Source: an uncultured Gemmatimonadales bacterium (GTDB lineage: Bacteria; Gemmatimonadota; Gemmatimonadetes; Gemmatimonadales; GWC2-71-9). Taken from it: DNA of 64,000 nucleotides. Positions within the stretch are counted from its first letter, which is position 1; each line of letters opens with the position of its first letter. The stretch covers positions 320,001 through 384,000 of the forward strand of contig CAWCFX010000002.1 in assembly GCA_963795085.1 (NCBI GenBank), in the 5' to 3' direction. Below are positions 12,926 to 21,900 of the stretch, piece after piece. A program made the position numbers.

Positions 12926-15900
12926 TGAGAAGTGAGCGGTGAAGAGTGAGAAGTGAGGAGTGAGAGGGACGTGTGATCGGAAGCCTTGCCTTCCTTCACC
13001 GTCCCTCTTAGTTCTCAGCAGGGAACCTCAAAAAGGCTGGGTGTGATCGAAGTCGTTGTCGCCCATCTGGGCCTGGACCGGGCCACCAATACCCCGGTCG
13101 TCATATTGCGGGAGCGTAATGGCGAACGGGTCCTTCCGATCTGGATCGGGCCGGCGGAGGCCAGCGCCATCGCGATGGAAATGCAGGGCGTCAAGGCCGT
13201 TCGCCCCATGACCCACGACCTGCTCAAGCAGGTCATCGTCGGGCTGGGCGCCGAGTTGCGCCGGGTCACCATCCATGACGTCAAGGAAAACACCTACTTC
13301 GCCGAGTTGCTGATGAGCCGGGAAGATCACGTCTTCCAGGTGGATGCCCGCCCCTCCGACAGCATCGCGCTGGCCATCCGGCTCAACGCTCCCATCTACA
13401 CCAGCGACCAGCTGCTGGACCAGCGTACGGTGGAAGCGCCGGAGAGCGATACGACCCTGGAGGCGGAACGCCTGAAGCACCACCTCGAAAACATGGACCC
13501 CCAGGATTTCGGCAAGTTCAACCCGTGATGGTCGCCAGCCCCCGCCTCCCCGGAGCCTGGGGCCTGCTGTTGCTCCTCCTCGCCCCGGGGGCCGCGGGAG
13601 GCCAGCAGTCTCTCCCGGTCCGGGGCAGGGTGGTGCTCGCCTCCGCCGATTCCGCCCCGGTCCCCGGGGTTCGGCTGGTCCTGCACCGGGTGGGACGCGC
13701 CGCCCAGGGCCCCCTCGACTCCACGGTGACCGGACCGGACGGTAGTTTCCGGCTCCGGTTCGCGGCCGATACCACCTCTCTCTACCTGCTCTCCGCCAGC
13801 TACGCCGGGATCGAGTATTTCTCCCCGCCCGTCAACACCAATCCCGCGCTGCCGGATACCGCCCTCGTGGTGGCGGTCTTTGATACCTCGTCCACCCAGC
13901 CGGTGACCCAGGTCGCCCGCTACCTGGTGATCCGGCGCGCGGCGGAGGATGGCAGCCGGAGCGTCCTGGACTTGATCGTGCTTGAGAACCGGGGCGCATT
14001 CACCCGGCTGGCCGGCGACACGGTGCGGCCCTCCTGGCAGGGCTTCGTCCCGCGGGGGGCCAGCGGTGTCCGGGTGGGCGAGGCCGACCTCTCGGCCGAT
14101 GCGATCCTGATCCGGGGCGACACCATCGAGGTGTTCGCCCCGATCGCGCCCGGCGAAAAGCAGATCGCGCTGGAGTATGCCCTGCGACCCGGCCTCCCCC
14201 TGGAGCTGGAGTTCGGCCAGGATAGCGTCGCCACCAACGTGCTGGCCCAGGACCCGGATGCCCGGGTCGAGGGCGGCGAGATGGCCGCGGTGGATTCCCA
14301 GAACATCGAAGGCGAAAACTTTCGCCGCTGGGTGGGCGCGCCGCACGCCGGGGACGCGATCAAGGTCAGCTTTGGCTCCGCGGCCGGCGGCGTCCCCGGG
14401 TGGATCCTGCCGGCCATGGTCGGCATGGCCGCGCTGGGATTGCTGGCCGTGTTCTTCCTGCAGCGAAAGCGGCGGGCGACTCCCCACCCGCTTGAAGCGA
14501 TCACCGACCGCATCGCGGAACTGGAAGCGCGCTATGCCGGGCGGGAAGGCGAAGTGCCAGCCCAGGAGTGGACCGGGTACCTGGCCGACCGGGAACGGCT
14601 GCGGGCCTCCCTGGCCGCCCACCTTGCCAGCCGGGGGAGAGCCCCCTAGCATTGAGCTGTTATCAGCGAACGCGGATATTCGGAAGCCGGTGGAAATCCG
14701 GCGCGGCCCCGCCACTGTAACGGGCAGTTCGAGGCGCAGCAGCAGCGCCCTTTCGTTCACACGCCACTGGGAGGTTCCCGGGAAGGCGAACGAATCGCCC
14801 GAAGCCAGGAGACCTCCTCGTTCGCGCCACCTGTTTGCCCTCGGGGGAGGGAATGGTGGCGTGACGCGCCTCCCGGCGACGCTACGCCCTTCTCCGATCC
14901 AACGAGAGGGGCATTTTCATTGGGCCATACTCCCCGGTTCGCGGCACTCCTCCCCGCCGTACTTCTTGCGCTGGCCATTGGCTGCCAGTCGCGGGAGCCG
15001 GGCGCCGGTCCGCTGCTCGCCGTGGACGACGCCGGCGATACGGTCCGCCTGGCAGCACCCGCCCGGCGCGTCGTCTCGCTGGTCCCCGCGACCACCGAAT
15101 TGCTGTTCGCCATCGGTGCCGGTGGCCAGCTGGTCGGCCGCACCCGCTGGGACGACTATCCCGCCCAGGCCGCCGCGATCCCCGATGTCGGCGATGGCCT
15201 CAGCCCCAGTATCGAAGCCATCCTCTCCCGGCAGCCCGACCTGGTGGTCATGTATCACTCCGGCTCCAATGCCGCGGCGGCCGGCCAGCTTCGCCAGCTG
15301 GGTATTCCCACCGTTCAACTCTCGGTGGACCGGCTCGCCGATGTGCCCCGCATCGCCCGCTTGCTGGGCCGGCTCACCGGACACGCCGGCGGCGCCGATA
15401 GCCTGGCGCGCCGCATGGCCGCCGAACTGGAGGCGGTGACCGTGCCGGCCACGACCACCGGGTTGCGAGTGTTGATCGTGGCCTGGGACCAGCCCCCCAT
15501 GGTGATCGGCGCCGGCAGTTTCCTGAGCGAGGTGGTCGAGCGGGCCGGGGCGGCCAATCTCTTCGGCGATCTCGCCGAGCCATCGGCATTGATCAGCATC
15601 GAAGCGGTGGTGCAGCGCGACCCCGATGCACTGCTGGTCAGCTCGGACGGGCCGCCGGCGCTGGCCTCCCGCCCCGAGTGGCGGGTGGTGCCGGCCGTCC
15701 GCGCCAACCGGTTCATCCACGTGACCAGCTCGGCGTTCAGCCGTCCCAGCCCCCGGGCGCCCGAGGCCATTCGTGAACTCCGGCGCAAGCTGGCGGAGTT
15801 CCGGCGGTGAGACCGGGAACGTCCTCGCTCGTCGCCGCGGGAGTGCTCCTCTCGCTGGCCATCGGGCTGTCTGCCGGCGCGGTATCGCTGAGCCCCTCCG

Positions 15901-18900: not shown

Positions 18901-21900
18901 GCGCGCATGGATCTCGAAATGGCCAGCAAGGGAACCTCGGCCACCGCCGCGTTCGGAAACGGCGTCACGGTGCCGGCGCTCGCCGACCTGCTTTTCCGCG
19001 ATGCGGTCGGCGTCGCCATTAACCCGGACCTGCGGCCGGAACGGGTGCGCTGGGAAGCAGAGCTGGGAGTGTCGCAGGAGTTTTCGGCCCGGGGCCACCG
19101 GGGCACGCTGCGACTCGGCGGCTTTTATGGCGTGGTGGACGACATGATACTCTGGACACCGAACTTCCGGTTTGTCTGGAGTCCGGGGAATTTCGGGGTC
19201 CGGCGCCGGGGGGTGGAAGGCAGCCTGGACCTGGGGGCGTCACGGGGCCTGCGCCTGCACGCCTCCGCCGCCCTGACCCGCACCAGCTACGATACCCGGG
19301 GGGGCGGCGCCGTCCCGTACCGGCCCGAGGCCATGTACGCGCTCAGCACCTCGTGGTCGCCTGGCCCATGGCGCTTTTCCCTCGGATGGAACTACCTGGG
19401 CGCCCGGTACAGCCGGAACCGGGAGACCCAGGCTCTGCCCGGGTTCGGCCTGGTGACTGCGGGTGTCTCGCGCCGGGTCGGGCAGGTGGTTCTCCGGGGC
19501 GAAGTCCGCGACCTCACCGATGCGCGGCCGATGTACATCGCGGGGTTTCCTACCCCGGGCCGCACCGTTCACCTTTCGATCAACCTGGAACTGCCATGAT
19601 CTCTTCCCGTCGCCTCCTCACCACCGCCGCAGTGCTGGGCCTGCTCGCCGCCTGCGCGGAAACCTCGGCGCCTCTGCCGCCGGCGGACGAGGTTCTCCTG
19701 GTCGTCAACAGCACCGAAGCTTCGCTCAGCGTGATCCCGGTCAAGTCGCCGGGGTCCGGGGTCACGGTGCCGCTGGGGGGAACCACGCCCTCGCCCGTGA
19801 ACGTCGCCGCCCGGGACGGCATCGCCATTGTCCCCATGGGTCTCGACAACAACGTCGCGGTGGTGGACCTTCGCCAGGCCCAGGTCATCAACTCCATCCA
19901 GCTGCCGGCGGGATCGGGCGCCACCGGCGCGGCGCTGATCAGCGATTCCATCGCCTATGTCGCGAACCCCAATCTGAACACGGTCACCCGGATCAACCTC
20001 CGCTCCGGGGACACCGCCAGCGTACGAGTGGGTGTTTACCCCCAGGGCATGGTCTTCACCCGGGGGCGGCTGTTCGTGCTCAATGGCAACCTCGTCAACT
20101 TTTCGCCGGCCGGCCCCAGCTGGATCACCGTGATCGATCCGGTCACGAATACCAAGGCAGCCGGGATCGACAGCATCGCCCTGCCCGGTCCCGGCAACGC
20201 CGGGTTCGCGGATGTGGCCAGCGACGGGCTGATCTACGTGATGAGCTCGGGGAGTTTTTCCGGCGGGGAAGGCCGGCTGCACATCGTGGACCCGGTGGGG
20301 AGAAGCGAGGTCGCCAATTTCGGGGGGTTCGGCGTGGCGCCCGGGGCCATCGCGGCTGACGGCGGGGAACGCCTGTTCATCTCCTCCTTTACCGAAGGGT
20401 TGATGGAGTTCAATACCCGGACCCGCGCCGTGGTACGGGGCGCCGGAAACGGAGTCAGCATCCCCGGCAACTCCGCGGTCGAGGTGGATAGCGAGGGGCG
20501 CATCTATGCCGTGGGCACCGGGCCCTGCCAGGGGGGGCAGGTGGGCGTGGCCCACGTGCTGGGCGTCAACCTGAACGAGACCGGGACCGTGAACCTGGGC
20601 GAATGCTCGATCTTCGCGGCCGTCACCGAGATCCCACCGGCGCCCTGAGCCGAGGCCAGCAGGCAATGGCGACGATCCCTGGTCAATGACCTGTGCCGAA
20701 TCACGAATTGGTTCGGGGGCGCTTATTCTTCTCCCATGCCGCCTCTTTCCACACCCGCGATCATACTGGCCGCATTCCGGTATGGCGAGAGCAGCAAGAT
20801 CCTCCGTCTCGCCACTGAAGCGGCCGGGGTGCAGAGCGCCATCGCGAAAGGCGCGCTGCGGCCCCGGAGCCGGTTCGGTGCCGCCCTCCAGGTTCTCAGC
20901 GACGGCCACGCCCACCTCATCGTCCACGCCAACCGGGAGCTGCAACTGCTCACCGCGTTTGATCTGCAGCGGATCCGGGTCGGACTTGCCCGGGACATGG
21001 AGCGCTACGCGGCCGCCACCGCGCTGGCCGAGGTGATGCTGCGCTTCGCGCCCGGCGACGAGCATGCCGGGAGCTTCCAGGCGCTGCAGGGAGGGCTGAA
21101 TAGCCTGGAGTCGGCGCCGGCCGGTGAGGTCGAGGCCGAGGGAATCAGCGTCATGTGGCGCCTGGTCGGAGCCCTCGGATTCGAGCCCACCCTGCACGAG
21201 TGCGTGCGCTGCGGGGAGGAGTCGCCGGCGGGAGAGCTGCTCTTCGATGCGGCCGCCGGGGGCTCCGTGTGTGCCGGTTGCGGCCGCCAGGGCAGCCCCG
21301 CGCGGCTGAATGCCGAGGACCGGGGCGGCCTGCTGGCGCTGATCCAGCCGGGAGGGACGGCGCCCCCCGCTTTCGGCCCGGCAAGGCGCCGCCCACCGGC
21401 GCCTTCTCGCCCGGTACATTCAGTATCATCTTGGCGAAGGCGCCGCGCTGCCGGCGCTGGATTTCTGGATTCGGCGCCCCTGGGATGCCGCGTGATCATC
21501 GGCACCGCCGGACACATCGATCACGGCAAGTCTGCCCTCGTCGAGGCGCTGACCGGGGCCCGGATGGACCGGCTCCGGGAGGAGCGGGAACGCGGGATCA
21601 CCATCGAGCTCAACTTCGCCCCCTTCGACCTGGGCGGCGGCCGGGTGGCCGGATTCGTTGACGTCCCCGGCCATGAAGACTTCGTGCGCACCATGGTGGC
21701 CGGCGCCTCCGGCATCGACCTCGTCCTCCTGGTCATCGCGGCCGACGAGGGCATCAAGCCGCAGACCCGCGAGCACCTGGCCATCGCCGAACAGTTGGGC
21801 ATCGCCTGCGGCATTCCGGTCCTGACCAAGGGGGACCTGGTGGACGCCGAATGGGCCGCGATGATGACGGAGGAGGTCACGGATTGGCTGCGCGCGTCGC

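What a model noticed while it worked through the whole genome (the two positions that open the first line are those of the whole stretch)
14682..20648. A BtuG-type vitamin B12-capturing surface lipoprotein outside Bacteroidota, in a cobalamin-riboswitch operon next to the [...]
The operon behind the cobalamin riboswitch (C2:334682-334813) encodes a BtuF-like binding protein, BtuC/D-like ABC parts, a TonB-dependent receptor (g01545) and last g01546 (C2:339596-340648, 350 aa, no Pfam/NCBIfam/Swiss-Prot row). g01546 is a lipoprotein (invariant L-x-A-C, Cys20) that folds as a seven-bladed beta-propeller whose closest solved structures are the B12-binding surface lipoproteins BtuG1-3 of Bacteroides. 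It is proposed to be the BtuG equivalent of Gemmatimonadota; BtuG was described as exclusive to Bacteroidetes.
Evidence so far: Riboswitch RF00174, 70 bits; gene order and Swiss-Prot hits. 20-sequence alignment: Cys20 invariant. AlphaFold pLDDT 89.0, pTM 0.86. Foldseek vs PDB: ranks 1-5 and 7-17 are BtuG1, BtuG2, BT2095, BT1954, BtuB-BtuG complexes, 3DSM (E 1.8e-16 to 6.5e-13, TM 0.71-0.75, 12-18% id); an archaeal YVTN propeller at rank 6; other propellers from E 2.6e-11. ESM Atlas: nearest named clusters YncE family/DUF5074, score 0.93-0.95. 1141 database homologs. Receptor-g01546-recO order also in a relative; homolog in 3 of 5 same-family and 0 of 9 other genomes of the order sampled. Wexler et al. 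2018, PMC6143338: 'No homologs were detected outside of the Bacteroidetes'.
(Added by a program. Inside this text positions count along the whole contig: contig position 320,001 is position 1 of the stretch shown here. "Call 12" and the like, gene names such as g00115 and contig names such as C1 are that model's own, and its searches are not shown. The text may have been shortened before it was handed on; [...] marks where a part breaks off. The agent that wrote the report below was given it as the finding of a first reader that could run no searches.)

Follow-up and report, generated by a model that had tools for sequence, protein, structure and literature searches.

The report
BtuG-like B12 receptor lid in Gemmatimonadota
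A lipoprotein shaped like a seven-bladed propeller is encoded with vitamin B12 uptake genes under a B12 riboswitch throughout the soil phylum Gemmatimonadota and probably caps the outer-membrane B12 receptor, as BtuG does in gut Bacteroides, a device so far described only there.

Summary
A cobalamin riboswitch (14682-14813, 70 bits) precedes BtuF-, BtuC- and BtuD-like genes, a TonB-dependent receptor and g01546 (19596-20648, 350 aa). g01546 has a lipobox (Cys20) and folds as a seven-bladed propeller (pLDDT 95). The best new evidence is context. In 20 of 20 other Gemmatimonadota genomes (10 families) the homolog lies behind a riboswitch on the same strand, 19 above Rfam's threshold. A receptor gene stands directly upstream in 23 of 28 close loci. 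A complex model puts the propeller on the receptor's outer loops (score 0.80, best control 0.01), though solved BtuB-BtuG complexes may drive that. Kinship to BtuG is real but not specific. Profile comparison gives 98.7% and E 4e-16 over the full length. However, an archaeal YVTN propeller matches as well or better, generic YVTN propellers score alike, and an unrooted tree does not join this family to BtuG. The BtuG residues that contact B12 and could be mapped are not conserved. Verdict: a distinct propeller clade that most likely works like BtuG (about 0.65). B12 binding and surface exposure are untested. No held paper pairs BtuG with Gemmatimonadota. Interest is moderate.

The parts
14624..14652 (+). 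sigma-70-like promoter match just upstream of the riboswitch
   Evidence: TTGCCA, 17 nt spacer, TAGCAT, 9 of 12 positions. This is a consensus match only. The region has 3 such sites, against a mean of 0.4 in shuffles.
14682..14813 (+). cobalamin riboswitch aptamer (RF00174)
   Evidence: 70 bits, gathering score 31.5, E 7.4e-16; it is the only RF00174 match in the genome.
14920..15810 (+). BtuF-like periplasmic binding protein; lipobox AIGC
   Evidence: Peripla_BP_2, 2.4e-31. BtuF model, 1.3e-27, below the cut-off.
15807..16781 (+). BtuC-like ABC permease
   Evidence: FecCD, 1.2e-88. BtuC models, 5e-68, below the cut-off.
16778..17566 (+). BtuD-like ABC ATPase
   Evidence: ABC_tran, 1.5e-32; corrinoid ABC ATPase model, 4.4e-64, below the cut-off.
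17563..19599 (+). TonB-dependent receptor with an N-terminal CarboxypepD_reg domain, presumed corrinoid receptor. The start at GTG 17563 is my choice.
   Evidence: Plug 1.7e-13 and CarboxypepD_reg 3.9e-10; the best NCBIfam row is TonB-B12, 1.4e-24, below the cut-off; its loops at residues 265-266, 306-309, 350-354, 482-483, 532-544, 576-582, 617-624 and 660-661 are the predicted contact with g01546.
19596..20648 (+). g01546: lipoprotein with a seven-bladed YVTN-type beta-propeller, the proposed lid and corrinoid-capture partner of the receptor
   Evidence: sequence; alignment; model, pLDDT 95.1; fold and profile matches; hhalign to BtuG: 98.7%, E 4.2e-16; complex score 0.80, best control 0.01.
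19596..19655 (+). signal peptide and lipobox L-A-A-C; the Cys20 codon is at 19653-19655
   Evidence: Cys20 is the only invariant column among 55 sequences; a lipobox was found in 172 family members of 300 aa or more, and D/E stands at +3 after the Cys in 81% of them.

Best explanation
g01546 is an outer-membrane lipoprotein. Its seven-bladed propeller most likely sits as a lid on the extracellular side of the riboswitch-controlled TonB-dependent corrinoid receptor encoded just before it. There it would capture vitamin B12 or other corrinoids and hand them to the receptor. BtuF and BtuCD would then carry them across the periplasm and the inner membrane. This is how BtuG works with BtuB in Bacteroides.

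Shown here:
- the riboswitch operon;
- the lipobox;
- the propeller fold, as a confident model;
- phylum-wide conservation of the gene inside B12 transport clusters;
- distant full-length homology to BtuG.

Inferred, not shown:
- corrinoid binding;
- exposure on the cell surface;
- the physical complex with the receptor.
For: (1) Regulation. The operon begins with the genome's only cobalamin riboswitch.

(2) Conserved context. I chose 20 other Gemmatimonadota genomes from 10 families for having a homolog.
- Every homolog locus has an RF00174 match on the same strand, 2-6 kb upstream. One genome has two paralogous loci, each with its own riboswitch. That makes 22 loci with the window's. Twenty-one are above the gathering score, and G245 has 27.5 bits, below it.
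- These same-strand matches are 22 of all 27 RF00174 matches in the 21 genomes. Three further matches stand at the same loci on the opposite strand or just beyond.
- Of the 20 fetched loci, a receptor gene on the same strand precedes the propeller in 17. Three are exceptions: two (G006, G012) hold a further gene in between, and in L050 tblastn did not find the propeller.

(3) Close relatives. In 29 further loci (flanks of 1.5 kb) the gene directly upstream is:
- a receptor homologous to this one in 14;
- a different receptor type in 9 (Pfam TonB_dep_Rec_b-barrel, E <= 1e-43);
- BtuD-like in 3;
- BtuF-like in 1;
- probably BtuC-BtuD in 1 (L027);
- not assessable in 1, at a contig start.

(4) Lipoprotein. 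Cys20 is invariant. Cys311 and Cys337 are at least 90% conserved, which fits a disulfide in an exported protein.

(5) Homology to BtuG.
- hhalign of the family profile against six Bacteroidales BtuG propellers gives 98.7% and E 4.2e-16 over 321 columns, end to end, with the lipobox Cys aligned.
- The family profile hits the BtuG1 chain sequence at 2.7e-14 in one collinear stretch.
- In 5 of 5 Bacteroidales genomes the best hit of the family profile is the gene after the BtuB-like receptor behind a cobalamin riboswitch. One of these genes is a BtuG1 ortholog, 4.7e-277 to 8blw_B.

(6) Complex model. The score is 0.80 (runs 0.81, 0.80, 0.78) and the best of 3 controls is 0.01.
- That mark was reached by 116 of 157 solved complexes and 2 of 215 mismatched pairs.
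- The partner's pLDDT is 90-91, and the runs share at least 94% of contacts.
- Receptor contacts recur about every 40-45 residues up to residues 660-661, which are 17 residues from the C-terminus. None is in the plug. I read this as the extracellular loops.
- Propeller contacts 38-43 and 105-108 align, by hhalign, with the BtuG segments that carry B12 contacts.

(7) The genome has four SusC/SusD-type pairs, so lipoprotein lids on receptors are plausible in this organism.

(8) B12-binding-domain proteins are present (5 hits). CbiC and CobS were not found in a genome that is 93% complete. That fits dependence on uptake.
Against: (1) BtuG residues reported to contact B12 are not conserved where I could map them. 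The residue lists come from passages of the 2024 preprint and the numbering.
- The BtuG1 segment S-E-G-L-F (Glu57, Gly58, Phe60) aligns to N-S followed by a 5-residue gap.
- Arg141 is invariant in my six BtuG sequences. It aligns to Thr110 of the family motif SGATG.
- At 15-20% identity this alignment can be wrong in detail.

(2) Similarity is not specific to BtuG.
- VIA-align ranks the archaeal YVTN propeller 1l0q first (Z 37.5, rmsd 2.0, 285 aligned). BtuG1 has Z 33.1.
- The family profile hits 1l0q at 1.9e-23, which is better than its hit to BtuG.
- Generic YVTN proteins total 60-120 bits on the family HMM, though in partial stretches that are out of register.

(3) The reverse search does not single out g01546. 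In this genome the BtuG profile hits two unrelated YVTN propellers at 3.2e-8 and 1.9e-7. It hits g01546 at 7.6e-5.

(4) The unrooted tree gives ((family, generic YVTN),(BtuG, intermediate clade)) with SH-aLRT 94-95, from a quick search.

(5) In 4 or 5 of 28 assessable close loci no receptor gene is adjacent. Two unrelated receptor types are found beside the propeller.

(6) Nothing shows surface exposure. No export signal for surface lipoproteins is known in this phylum. The acidic residue at +3 (81% of 172 family members, against 19% of 279 candidate lipoproteins of the genome) is only suggestive.

(7) BtuB-BtuG complexes are solved, so the pass of the complex model may come from likeness to them.
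Confidence: 0.65

Rival explanations
1. g01546 is a periplasm-facing lipoprotein. It would hold or pass corrinoids between the receptor and BtuF, or otherwise serve the BtuFCD importer, rather than act as an extracellular lid.
For: - In 3 close relatives the gene follows BtuD directly, and in 1 it follows a BtuF-like gene, with no receptor gene in between.
- Two unrelated receptor types occur upstream in different genomes.
- No export signal for surface lipoproteins is established in this phylum.
- The BtuG residues that contact B12 are not conserved.
Against: - The complex model puts the propeller on the receptor loops opposite the plug, with no contact in the plug.
- A receptor is directly upstream in 23 of 28 assessable close loci, and on the same strand upstream of the propeller in 17 of the 20 fetched distant loci.
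- G217, one of the three genomes with the BtuD-propeller order, has a second riboswitch-receptor-propeller locus.
- The genome has SusD-type lids.
Confidence: 0.15
2. g01546 is regulated by B12 but does not bind corrinoids. It could be an assembly or stability factor for the receptor, like the propeller lipoprotein BamB. It could also be an enzyme of the lactonase-type propeller kind that acts on corrinoids or something else.
For: - Lactonase-type propellers are among the nearest folds (6nau, Z 33.5).
- Weak family rows point to PQQ-type and BamB-type propellers.
- No known B12-contact residue is conserved.
Against: - The gene stays in B12 transport clusters even where the receptor type changes or the receptor gene is elsewhere.
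- The columns conserved in 90% or more of the family are mostly Gly, Pro and Cys, with a single Asp. I saw no catalytic or metal-binding set among them.
- The full-length, in-register match to BtuG includes the lipid anchor.
Confidence: 0.1
3. g01546 is a passenger gene. It would be a YVTN propeller lipoprotein that merely sits between the B12 operon and recO, with no role in B12 uptake.
For: - recO follows it in 28 of 29 close loci, so part of the gene order is simply inherited.
- Generic YVTN propellers with other contexts exist in the same window.
Against: - Riboswitch linkage holds across 10 families of the phylum, where the gene order around it differs. It also holds for both paralogous loci of one genome.
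- The start codon overlaps the receptor's stop codon.
- No terminator-like site was found between the two genes.
Confidence: 0.03

Closest known systems
BtuG1/2/3 of Bacteroides thetaiotaomicron (B12-binding surface lipoproteins that cap BtuB; PDB 8blw, 8bmx, 8p97, 3dsm)
   Same: - It is a lipoprotein with a seven-bladed propeller of similar size.
- It is encoded directly after a TonB-dependent receptor in a cobalamin-riboswitch operon.
- Homology at profile level covers the full length and is in register: hhalign 98.7%, E 4.2e-16.
- It is predicted to sit on the receptor's outer loops.
   Different: - Identity is 13-18%. phmmer of the single protein finds no PDB chain at all at E <= 10.
- The BtuG B12-contact residues that I could map are not kept.
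- It forms a separate clade in the tree.
- It has a single acidic residue at +3 after the Cys, whereas Wexler et al. describe a Bacteroidetes lipoprotein export signal after the Cys in BtuG.
- In some genomes it is paired with receptors of another type or stands next to BtuD.
- The receptor here carries an N-terminal CarboxypepD_reg domain.
YVTN-repeat beta-propellers, e.g. the archaeal surface-layer protein 1l0q; NCBI's name 'YncE family protein'
   Same: - 1l0q is the best structural match by VIA-align: Z 37.5, rmsd 2.0, 285 aligned, 21% identity.
- It is also the best profile match, 1.9e-23.
- One Gemmatimonadales homolog is named 'YncE family protein' by a source.
   Different: - Matches of generic YVTN proteins to the family profile are partial and shifted by blades.
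- The two generic YVTN propellers of this window lie in a glycosyltransferase cluster, not behind a riboswitch.
- The Pfam models YNCE and DUF5074 do not reach g01546.
SusD-type lids on SusC-type transporters
   Same: - It is a lipoprotein encoded right after a TonB-dependent transporter that has a CarboxypepD_reg N-terminal domain.
- Four SusC/SusD-type pairs occur in the same genome.
   Different: g01546 is a propeller. That SusD proteins are helical, TPR-like folds that bind glycans is recalled, not tested here.
An intermediate propeller clade: tandem propellers in the B12 loci of two deep Gemmatimonadota families (G006, G012), with relatives carrying type IX secretion tails, one named from Calditrichaeota
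   Same: - In G006 and G012 these propellers stand in riboswitch-receptor loci.
- They match the family profile over its full length, 85-140 bits.
   Different: - This clade groups with BtuG in the tree (SH-aLRT 94-95).
- Its G006 and G012 members are hit by the BtuG profile at 2.6e-27 and 1.7e-25.
- Many members carry Por_Secre_tail or FlgD_ig tails.
- It is the nearer BtuG relative outside Bacteroidota. g01546 is not a member of it.

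Membership tests
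BtuG (Bacteroidota B12-capturing lid of BtuB) | Seven-bladed beta-propeller | tested here: met
   The model has pLDDT 95.1 and pTM 0.91. BtuG chains align at TM 0.71-0.74 and at Z 31.8-33.1 with 297-303 residues aligned.
BtuG (Bacteroidota B12-capturing lid of BtuB) | N-terminal lipoprotein signal with a conserved Cys | tested here: met
   The lipobox is LAAC and Cys20 is invariant in 55 sequences. This Cys aligns with the BtuG lipobox Cys in hhalign.
BtuG (Bacteroidota B12-capturing lid of BtuB) | Encoded next to btuB in a corrinoid-riboswitch locus | tested here: met
   It holds in the window. A riboswitch is present at 22 of 22 loci in 21 genomes, 21 of them above the gathering score. A receptor is directly upstream in 23 of 28 assessable close loci.
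BtuG (Bacteroidota B12-capturing lid of BtuB) | Sequence homology to BtuG that sets it apart from other propellers | tested here: inconclusive
   For: hhalign gives 98.7% and E 4.2e-16 over the full length. Against: 1l0q and generic YVTN proteins score as well or better. The unrooted tree does not join the family to BtuG. The reverse search prefers other propellers of this genome.
BtuG (Bacteroidota B12-capturing lid of BtuB) | Conserved B12-contact residues (BtuG1 Glu57/Gly58-equivalent, Phe60, Arg141; lists read as passages) | tested here: not met
   The S-E-G-L-F segment aligns to N-S plus a 5-residue gap. Arg141 aligns to Thr110 (numbering). Only these positions could be mapped, and the alignment is at 15-20% identity.
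BtuG (Bacteroidota B12-capturing lid of BtuB) | High-affinity corrinoid binding | not testable with these tools
   This needs purified protein. Cobalamin is not among the ligands of the complex tool.
BtuG (Bacteroidota B12-capturing lid of BtuB) | Surface exposure and a stable complex with the receptor | not testable with these tools
   There is only a model: score 0.80 against a best control of 0.01. D/E at +3 after the Cys occurs in 81% of 172 family members and in 19% of 279 candidate lipoproteins of the genome.
YVTN / YncE-like beta-propeller superfamily | Profile and fold match to YVTN propellers | tested here: met
   1l0q matches at 1.9e-23 and at Z 37.5. hhalign to the window's own YVTN protein P0394 gives 97.6% and E 3.5e-12.
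Pfam DUF5074 (PF16819) and YNCE (PF21783) | Match to the Pfam model at or above its cut-off | tested here: not met
   g01546 has no Pfam row at E <= 0.01. In the genome, PF16819 finds only the propeller at window 58638-58832.

The most novel reading that the evidence does not exclude
Corrinoid uptake through a lipoprotein-capped TonB-dependent receptor is not a Bacteroidota invention. It would be an old trait of the wider Fibrobacterota-Chlorobiota-Bacteroidota group, carried by at least two propeller clades. One clade is BtuG together with the intermediate clade, whose members are anchored by lipid or by type IX secretion tails. The other is the Gemmatimonadota family described here. This second clade would bind B12 with a different set of residues (conserved N-S, S-G-A-T-G and Asn motifs on the face turned to the receptor). 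It would also work with interchangeable receptor types.
Probability: 0.35. Interest if true: 0.7.

Novelty: new variant of a known kind. Interest (0 to 1): 0.58.

Why it matters
Papers on BtuG state that the family is exclusive to Bacteroidetes. I read passages of Wexler 2018 and of the 2024 preprint. [quoted passage not shown] Section 10.2 of a 2026 review lists BtuH and BtuJ beyond Bacteroidota, but not BtuG.

If g01546 binds corrinoids on the cell surface, lid-assisted B12 capture also operates in Gemmatimonadota. The literature I read describes this as a widespread phylum of soils and sediments (passages). It could then act as a strong sink for corrinoids in those habitats.

A second lid family would also be useful for comparison. 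It has different contact residues and interchangeable receptors, so it could show which features of the BtuB-BtuG mechanism are essential.

Tried and rejected
- **The search for related loci.** I used the genome search instead.
- **phmmer of g01546 against PDB sequences.** It found nothing at E <= 10.
- **The listing of cluster members.** Ten distant representatives gave no organism names, so I could not chart the family's range outside the phylum. The only hints are an ESM Atlas cluster labelled Fidelibacterota at 0.95 and one Calditrichaeota name for the intermediate clade.
- **Best hit in Bacteroidales genomes.** I first read this as a strong reciprocal test. I then down-weighted it, because those genomes show almost no other hits. 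The HMM control also shows generic YVTN proteins scoring alike.
- **The tree.** It is unrooted, from a quick search, and many rows have an odd letter make-up. It cannot tell a family that is sister to BtuG plus the intermediate clade from an independent recruitment.
- **An acidic export signal.** Lipoproteins encoded near receptors have D/E at +2 to +4 in 6 of 8 cases, against 106 of 271 other candidates. The numbers are too small, and my lipoprotein caller is crude.
- **My SelB query in the script.** It was translated in the wrong frame. Its hits are not used.
- **The complex model and ligand binding.** The model says nothing about ligand binding.
- **Not tried.** RNA or read data, a second structure job, and metagenome or viral scans.

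Full report
**What is there**

A cobalamin riboswitch (RF00174) lies at window 14682-14813 on the + strand. It scores 70 bits against a gathering score of 31.5. It is the only one found in this 3.9-Mb genome. A promoter-like site stands at 14624-14652.

Five genes follow on the same strand with overlapping or abutting ends:
- a BtuF-like binding protein, 14920-15810;
- a BtuC-like permease, 15807-16781;
- a BtuD-like ATPase, 16778-17566;
- a TonB-dependent receptor, 17563-19599, with CarboxypepD_reg and Plug domains;
- g01546, 19596-20648.

The receptor's best NCBIfam row is the B12 receptor model, below its cut-off.

The ATG of g01546 overlaps the receptor's TGA stop. The protein starts MISSRRLLTTAAVLGLLAAC, a lipoprotein signal with Cys20. 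It has no Pfam row, and only NCBIfam rows below the cut-off.

**The family**

The word-indexed search gives 1141 homologs. Those that carry names are from Gemmatimonadota, and one is called 'YncE family protein'. The exhaustive search gives 503 cluster representatives at E <= 0.001.

I aligned 55 full-length representatives (alignment A1). Cys20 is the only invariant column. Cys311 and Cys337 are at least 90% conserved.

With this alignment AlphaFold2 gives a seven-bladed propeller over residues 31-348, with pLDDT 95.1 and pTM 0.91.

Across 300 other genomes of the phylum, 234 have some match at 1e-5. By my hand count of that table, strong matches (E <= 1e-48) occur in:

| group | genomes with a strong match |
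|---|---|
| f1 (same family) | 84 of 125 |
| f2 | 5 of 69 |
| f4 | 2 of 6 |
| f5 | 1 of 1 |
| f6 | 5 of 23 |
| f7 | 9 of 47 |
| f8 | 3 of 4 |
| f9 | 1 of 3 |
| total | about 110 of 300 |

Two of the 84 (G057, G182) are unpublished genomes.

**Context, the main new evidence**

I fetched about 19 kb around the homolog in 20 genomes of 10 families.
- In 17 of the 20 fetched loci a receptor gene on the same strand precedes the propeller. Two more loci (G006, G012) hold a further gene in between. In L050 tblastn did not find the propeller. BtuFCD genes are often beside them.
- A genome-wide riboswitch search in these 20 genomes plus the window's gave 27 matches.
- Every propeller locus has a match on the same strand, 2-6 kb upstream. 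That makes 22 loci, because G217 has two paralogous loci. Twenty-one are above the gathering score. G245 has 27.5 bits, below it.
- Three further matches stand at the same loci, two divergent beside BtuFCD and one just beyond (G071, G196, G274).
- These genomes were chosen because they have the homolog. The result therefore shows linkage, not frequency.

In 29 closer relatives with flanks of 1.5 kb, the gene directly upstream is:
- a receptor like the window's in 14;
- a receptor of another type in 9 (Pfam barrel model, E <= 1e-43, no tblastn match to the window's receptor);
- BtuD-like in 3;
- BtuF-like in 1;
- probably BtuC-BtuD in 1;
- unknown in 1, at a contig start.

recO follows the gene in 28 of the 29 loci. 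So the gene always stays inside B12 transport clusters. A receptor is usually beside it, but not always, and the receptor type can change.

**Is it a BtuG?**

Foldseek puts BtuG1/2/3 and 3DSM at ranks 1-8 (E 4.2e-16 to 1.4e-14, TM 0.71-0.74, 13-17% identity). The archaeal YVTN propeller 1l0q is at rank 9.

VIA-align does not lean on Foldseek, and it orders them differently:

| chain | Z | rmsd | aligned |
|---|---|---|---|
| 1l0q (archaeal YVTN) | 37.5 | 2.0 | 285 |
| 6nau (lactonase) | 33.5 | 2.2 | 289 |
| 8blw_B (BtuG1) | 33.1 | 2.5 | 302 |
| 8ptf (titled BtuG2 by Foldseek; BtuG1 sequence) | 32.5 | 2.7 | 303 |

The family profile hits 1l0q at 1.9e-23, in three shifted stretches. It hits the BtuG1 chain sequence at 2.7e-14 in one collinear stretch, and the BtuG3 and BtuG2 chains near 6e-5 to 7e-5.

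I obtained handles in Bacteroidales genomes through a 16S probe. In 5 of 5 of these genomes the best hit of the family profile is the gene after the BtuB-like receptor behind a cobalamin riboswitch. Seven of the eight top hits have that arrangement. One of them is a BtuG1 ortholog, 4.7e-277 to 8blw_B. Another is a BtuG-family member, 6.3e-41.

I aligned six such propellers (alignment A2). hhalign of A1 against A2 gives 98.7% and E 4.2e-16 over 321 columns, from lipobox to C-terminus.

**Controls that limit this**

- The BtuG profile, run back on the 21 Gemmatimonadota genomes, matches in 16. In this genome it prefers two unrelated YVTN propellers (3.2e-8 and 1.9e-7) over g01546 (7.6e-5).
- Generic YVTN proteins from many organisms total 60-120 bits on the family HMM. 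BtuG propellers reach 35-51 bits. The generic matches are partial and out of register, whereas the BtuG matches are in register.
- hhalign of the family against the window's own YVTN protein gives 97.6% and E 3.5e-12, but shifted by about two blades.
- An unrooted quick tree of 46-48 rows gives four clean groups joined as ((family, generic YVTN),(BtuG, intermediate clade)), with SH-aLRT 94-95. This fits the family being sister to BtuG plus the intermediate clade only if the root lies among the generic YVTN rows. The data cannot say whether it does.

**Contact residues**

I took the residue lists from passages of the 2024 preprint and the numbering.
- The BtuG1 segment S-E-G-L-F, which carries B12 contacts, aligns to N-S plus a 5-residue gap.
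- The invariant Arg141 aligns to Thr110 of the family's SGATG motif.

On this evidence I file the family as a YVTN-superfamily clade that resembles BtuG in anchor, size, register and context. I do not file it as a member of BtuG in the strict sense.

**An intermediate clade**

In two deep families of the phylum (G006, G012) the riboswitch-receptor locus holds two propellers in tandem. In G006 it also holds a protein with a type IX secretion tail.

The BtuG profile hits one of these propellers at 2.6e-27 and 1.7e-25. Both tandem copies fall in a clade that groups with BtuG.

Relatives of this clade often carry Por_Secre_tail or FlgD_ig tails. One is named from Calditrichaeota. This clade, not g01546, is the nearer BtuG relative outside Bacteroidota.

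**Mechanism**

A complex model was made of the receptor (residues 105-678, 16-row alignment) with the propeller (residues 21-350, 16-row alignment).
- It scores 0.80 (runs 0.81, 0.80, 0.78). The best of three controls scores 0.01.
- That mark was reached by 116 of 157 solved complexes and by 2 of 215 mismatched pairs.
- The partner's pLDDT is 90-91, and the runs share at least 94% of contacts.
- The model supports binding but does not show it. Because BtuB-BtuG complexes are solved, the pass may reflect likeness to them.

The receptor contacts recur every 40-45 residues and end at 660-661, which is 17 residues before the C-terminus. None lies in the plug. I read these as the extracellular loops.

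The propeller contacts include residues 38-43 and 105-108. By hhalign these are the segments that align with BtuG's ligand-binding loops. The conserved Cys311 and Cys337 also lie in the contact region.

Other points that fit the explanation:
- The genome has four SusC/SusD-type pairs among 15 Plug-domain receptors. The SusD model rings in only one of the 14 control genomes, B. thetaiotaomicron.
- The genome has five B12-binding-domain hits, and no CbiC or CobS was found at 93% completeness.
- After the lipidated Cys, D/E stands at +3 in 81% of 172 family members. The figure is 19% for 279 crude candidate lipoproteins of the genome. This is suggestive of a sorting signal, no more.

**Literature**

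[quoted passage not shown] - The 2024 preprint says BtuG is present exclusively in Bacteroidetes (passages).
- Price and Arkin 2023 found conserved lid-receptor proximity almost only in Bacteroidota (section 14).
- Section 10.2 of the 2026 review lists BtuH and BtuJ beyond Bacteroidota, not BtuG.
- No paper in the held library contains both 'BtuG' and 'Gemmatimonad'. Four further searches showed none that describes such a protein.
- One Gemmatimonadota paper notes btuF and btuB and no B12 synthesis (passages).
- I did not read any supplements.

**Verdict**

The feature is real and is conserved across a phylum. Most likely (0.65) it is a corrinoid-capturing lid of the receptor that works like BtuG. 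It would be a new variant of a known kind, with distinct residues and flexible receptor partners.

Binding, surface exposure and the exact kinship to BtuG remain open.

Noticed in passing
window 20736-23369 (+): RecO (residues 3-188) and SelB (residues 253-865) lie in one open frame of 877 aa. In relatives they are separate genes: in L034 they overlap in different frames (8555-9316 and 6708-8558), and L053 also has separate genes. Residues 200-251 look like out-of-frame sequence. This suggests an indel near the 3' end of recO, an assembly error, or a real fusion.
   Followed up: partly
window 57657-59183 (+) and 59295-60293 (+): Two further YVTN-type propeller proteins lie here. One carries a Big_2 domain and the other has a lipobox (LAAC). 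They sit in a glycosyltransferase cluster just after rpoN (54955-56469). The BtuG and DUF5074 profiles hit them better than they hit g01546. No link to B12 was seen.
   Followed up: partly
window 13525-14649 (+): A 374-aa protein is encoded just upstream of the riboswitch. It has a signal-like N-terminus and a weak CarboxypepD_reg match (7.1e-5, below the cut-off). It is conserved at the same place in L034, L050 and L053. Its function is unknown.
   Followed up: no
L046 (G006) 8901-14691 and L045 (G012) 1827-7833: The B12 loci of two deep Gemmatimonadota families hold a riboswitch, a receptor and two propellers in tandem. In G006 a 438-aa protein with a type IX secretion sorting tail lies between the receptor and the propellers. 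A subtilase with such a tail lies downstream.
   Followed up: partly
L039, L040, L049 (families f6 and f7): Here the propeller carries an N-terminal extension of about 120-160 aa. L040 and L049 give weak PKD/Ig-like matches below the Pfam cut-offs, and L039 gives no Pfam match. It may parallel the extra domain fused to BtuG1.
   Followed up: partly
L017, L021-L023, L028, L029, L031-L033: In these 9 close relatives the receptor in front of the propeller is of a different type. It matches the Pfam barrel model strongly but has no tblastn match to the window's receptor. The window's own receptor gives no Pfam barrel row.
   Followed up: partly
G000 C1:1301386-1305635, C1:45917-49971, C4:355282-359159, C4:96016-99875: There are four SusC/SusD-type pairs in this Gemmatimonadota genome. 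The three SusD-like lipoproteins that my caller picked up have an acidic residue within +2 to +4 after the Cys.
   Followed up: partly
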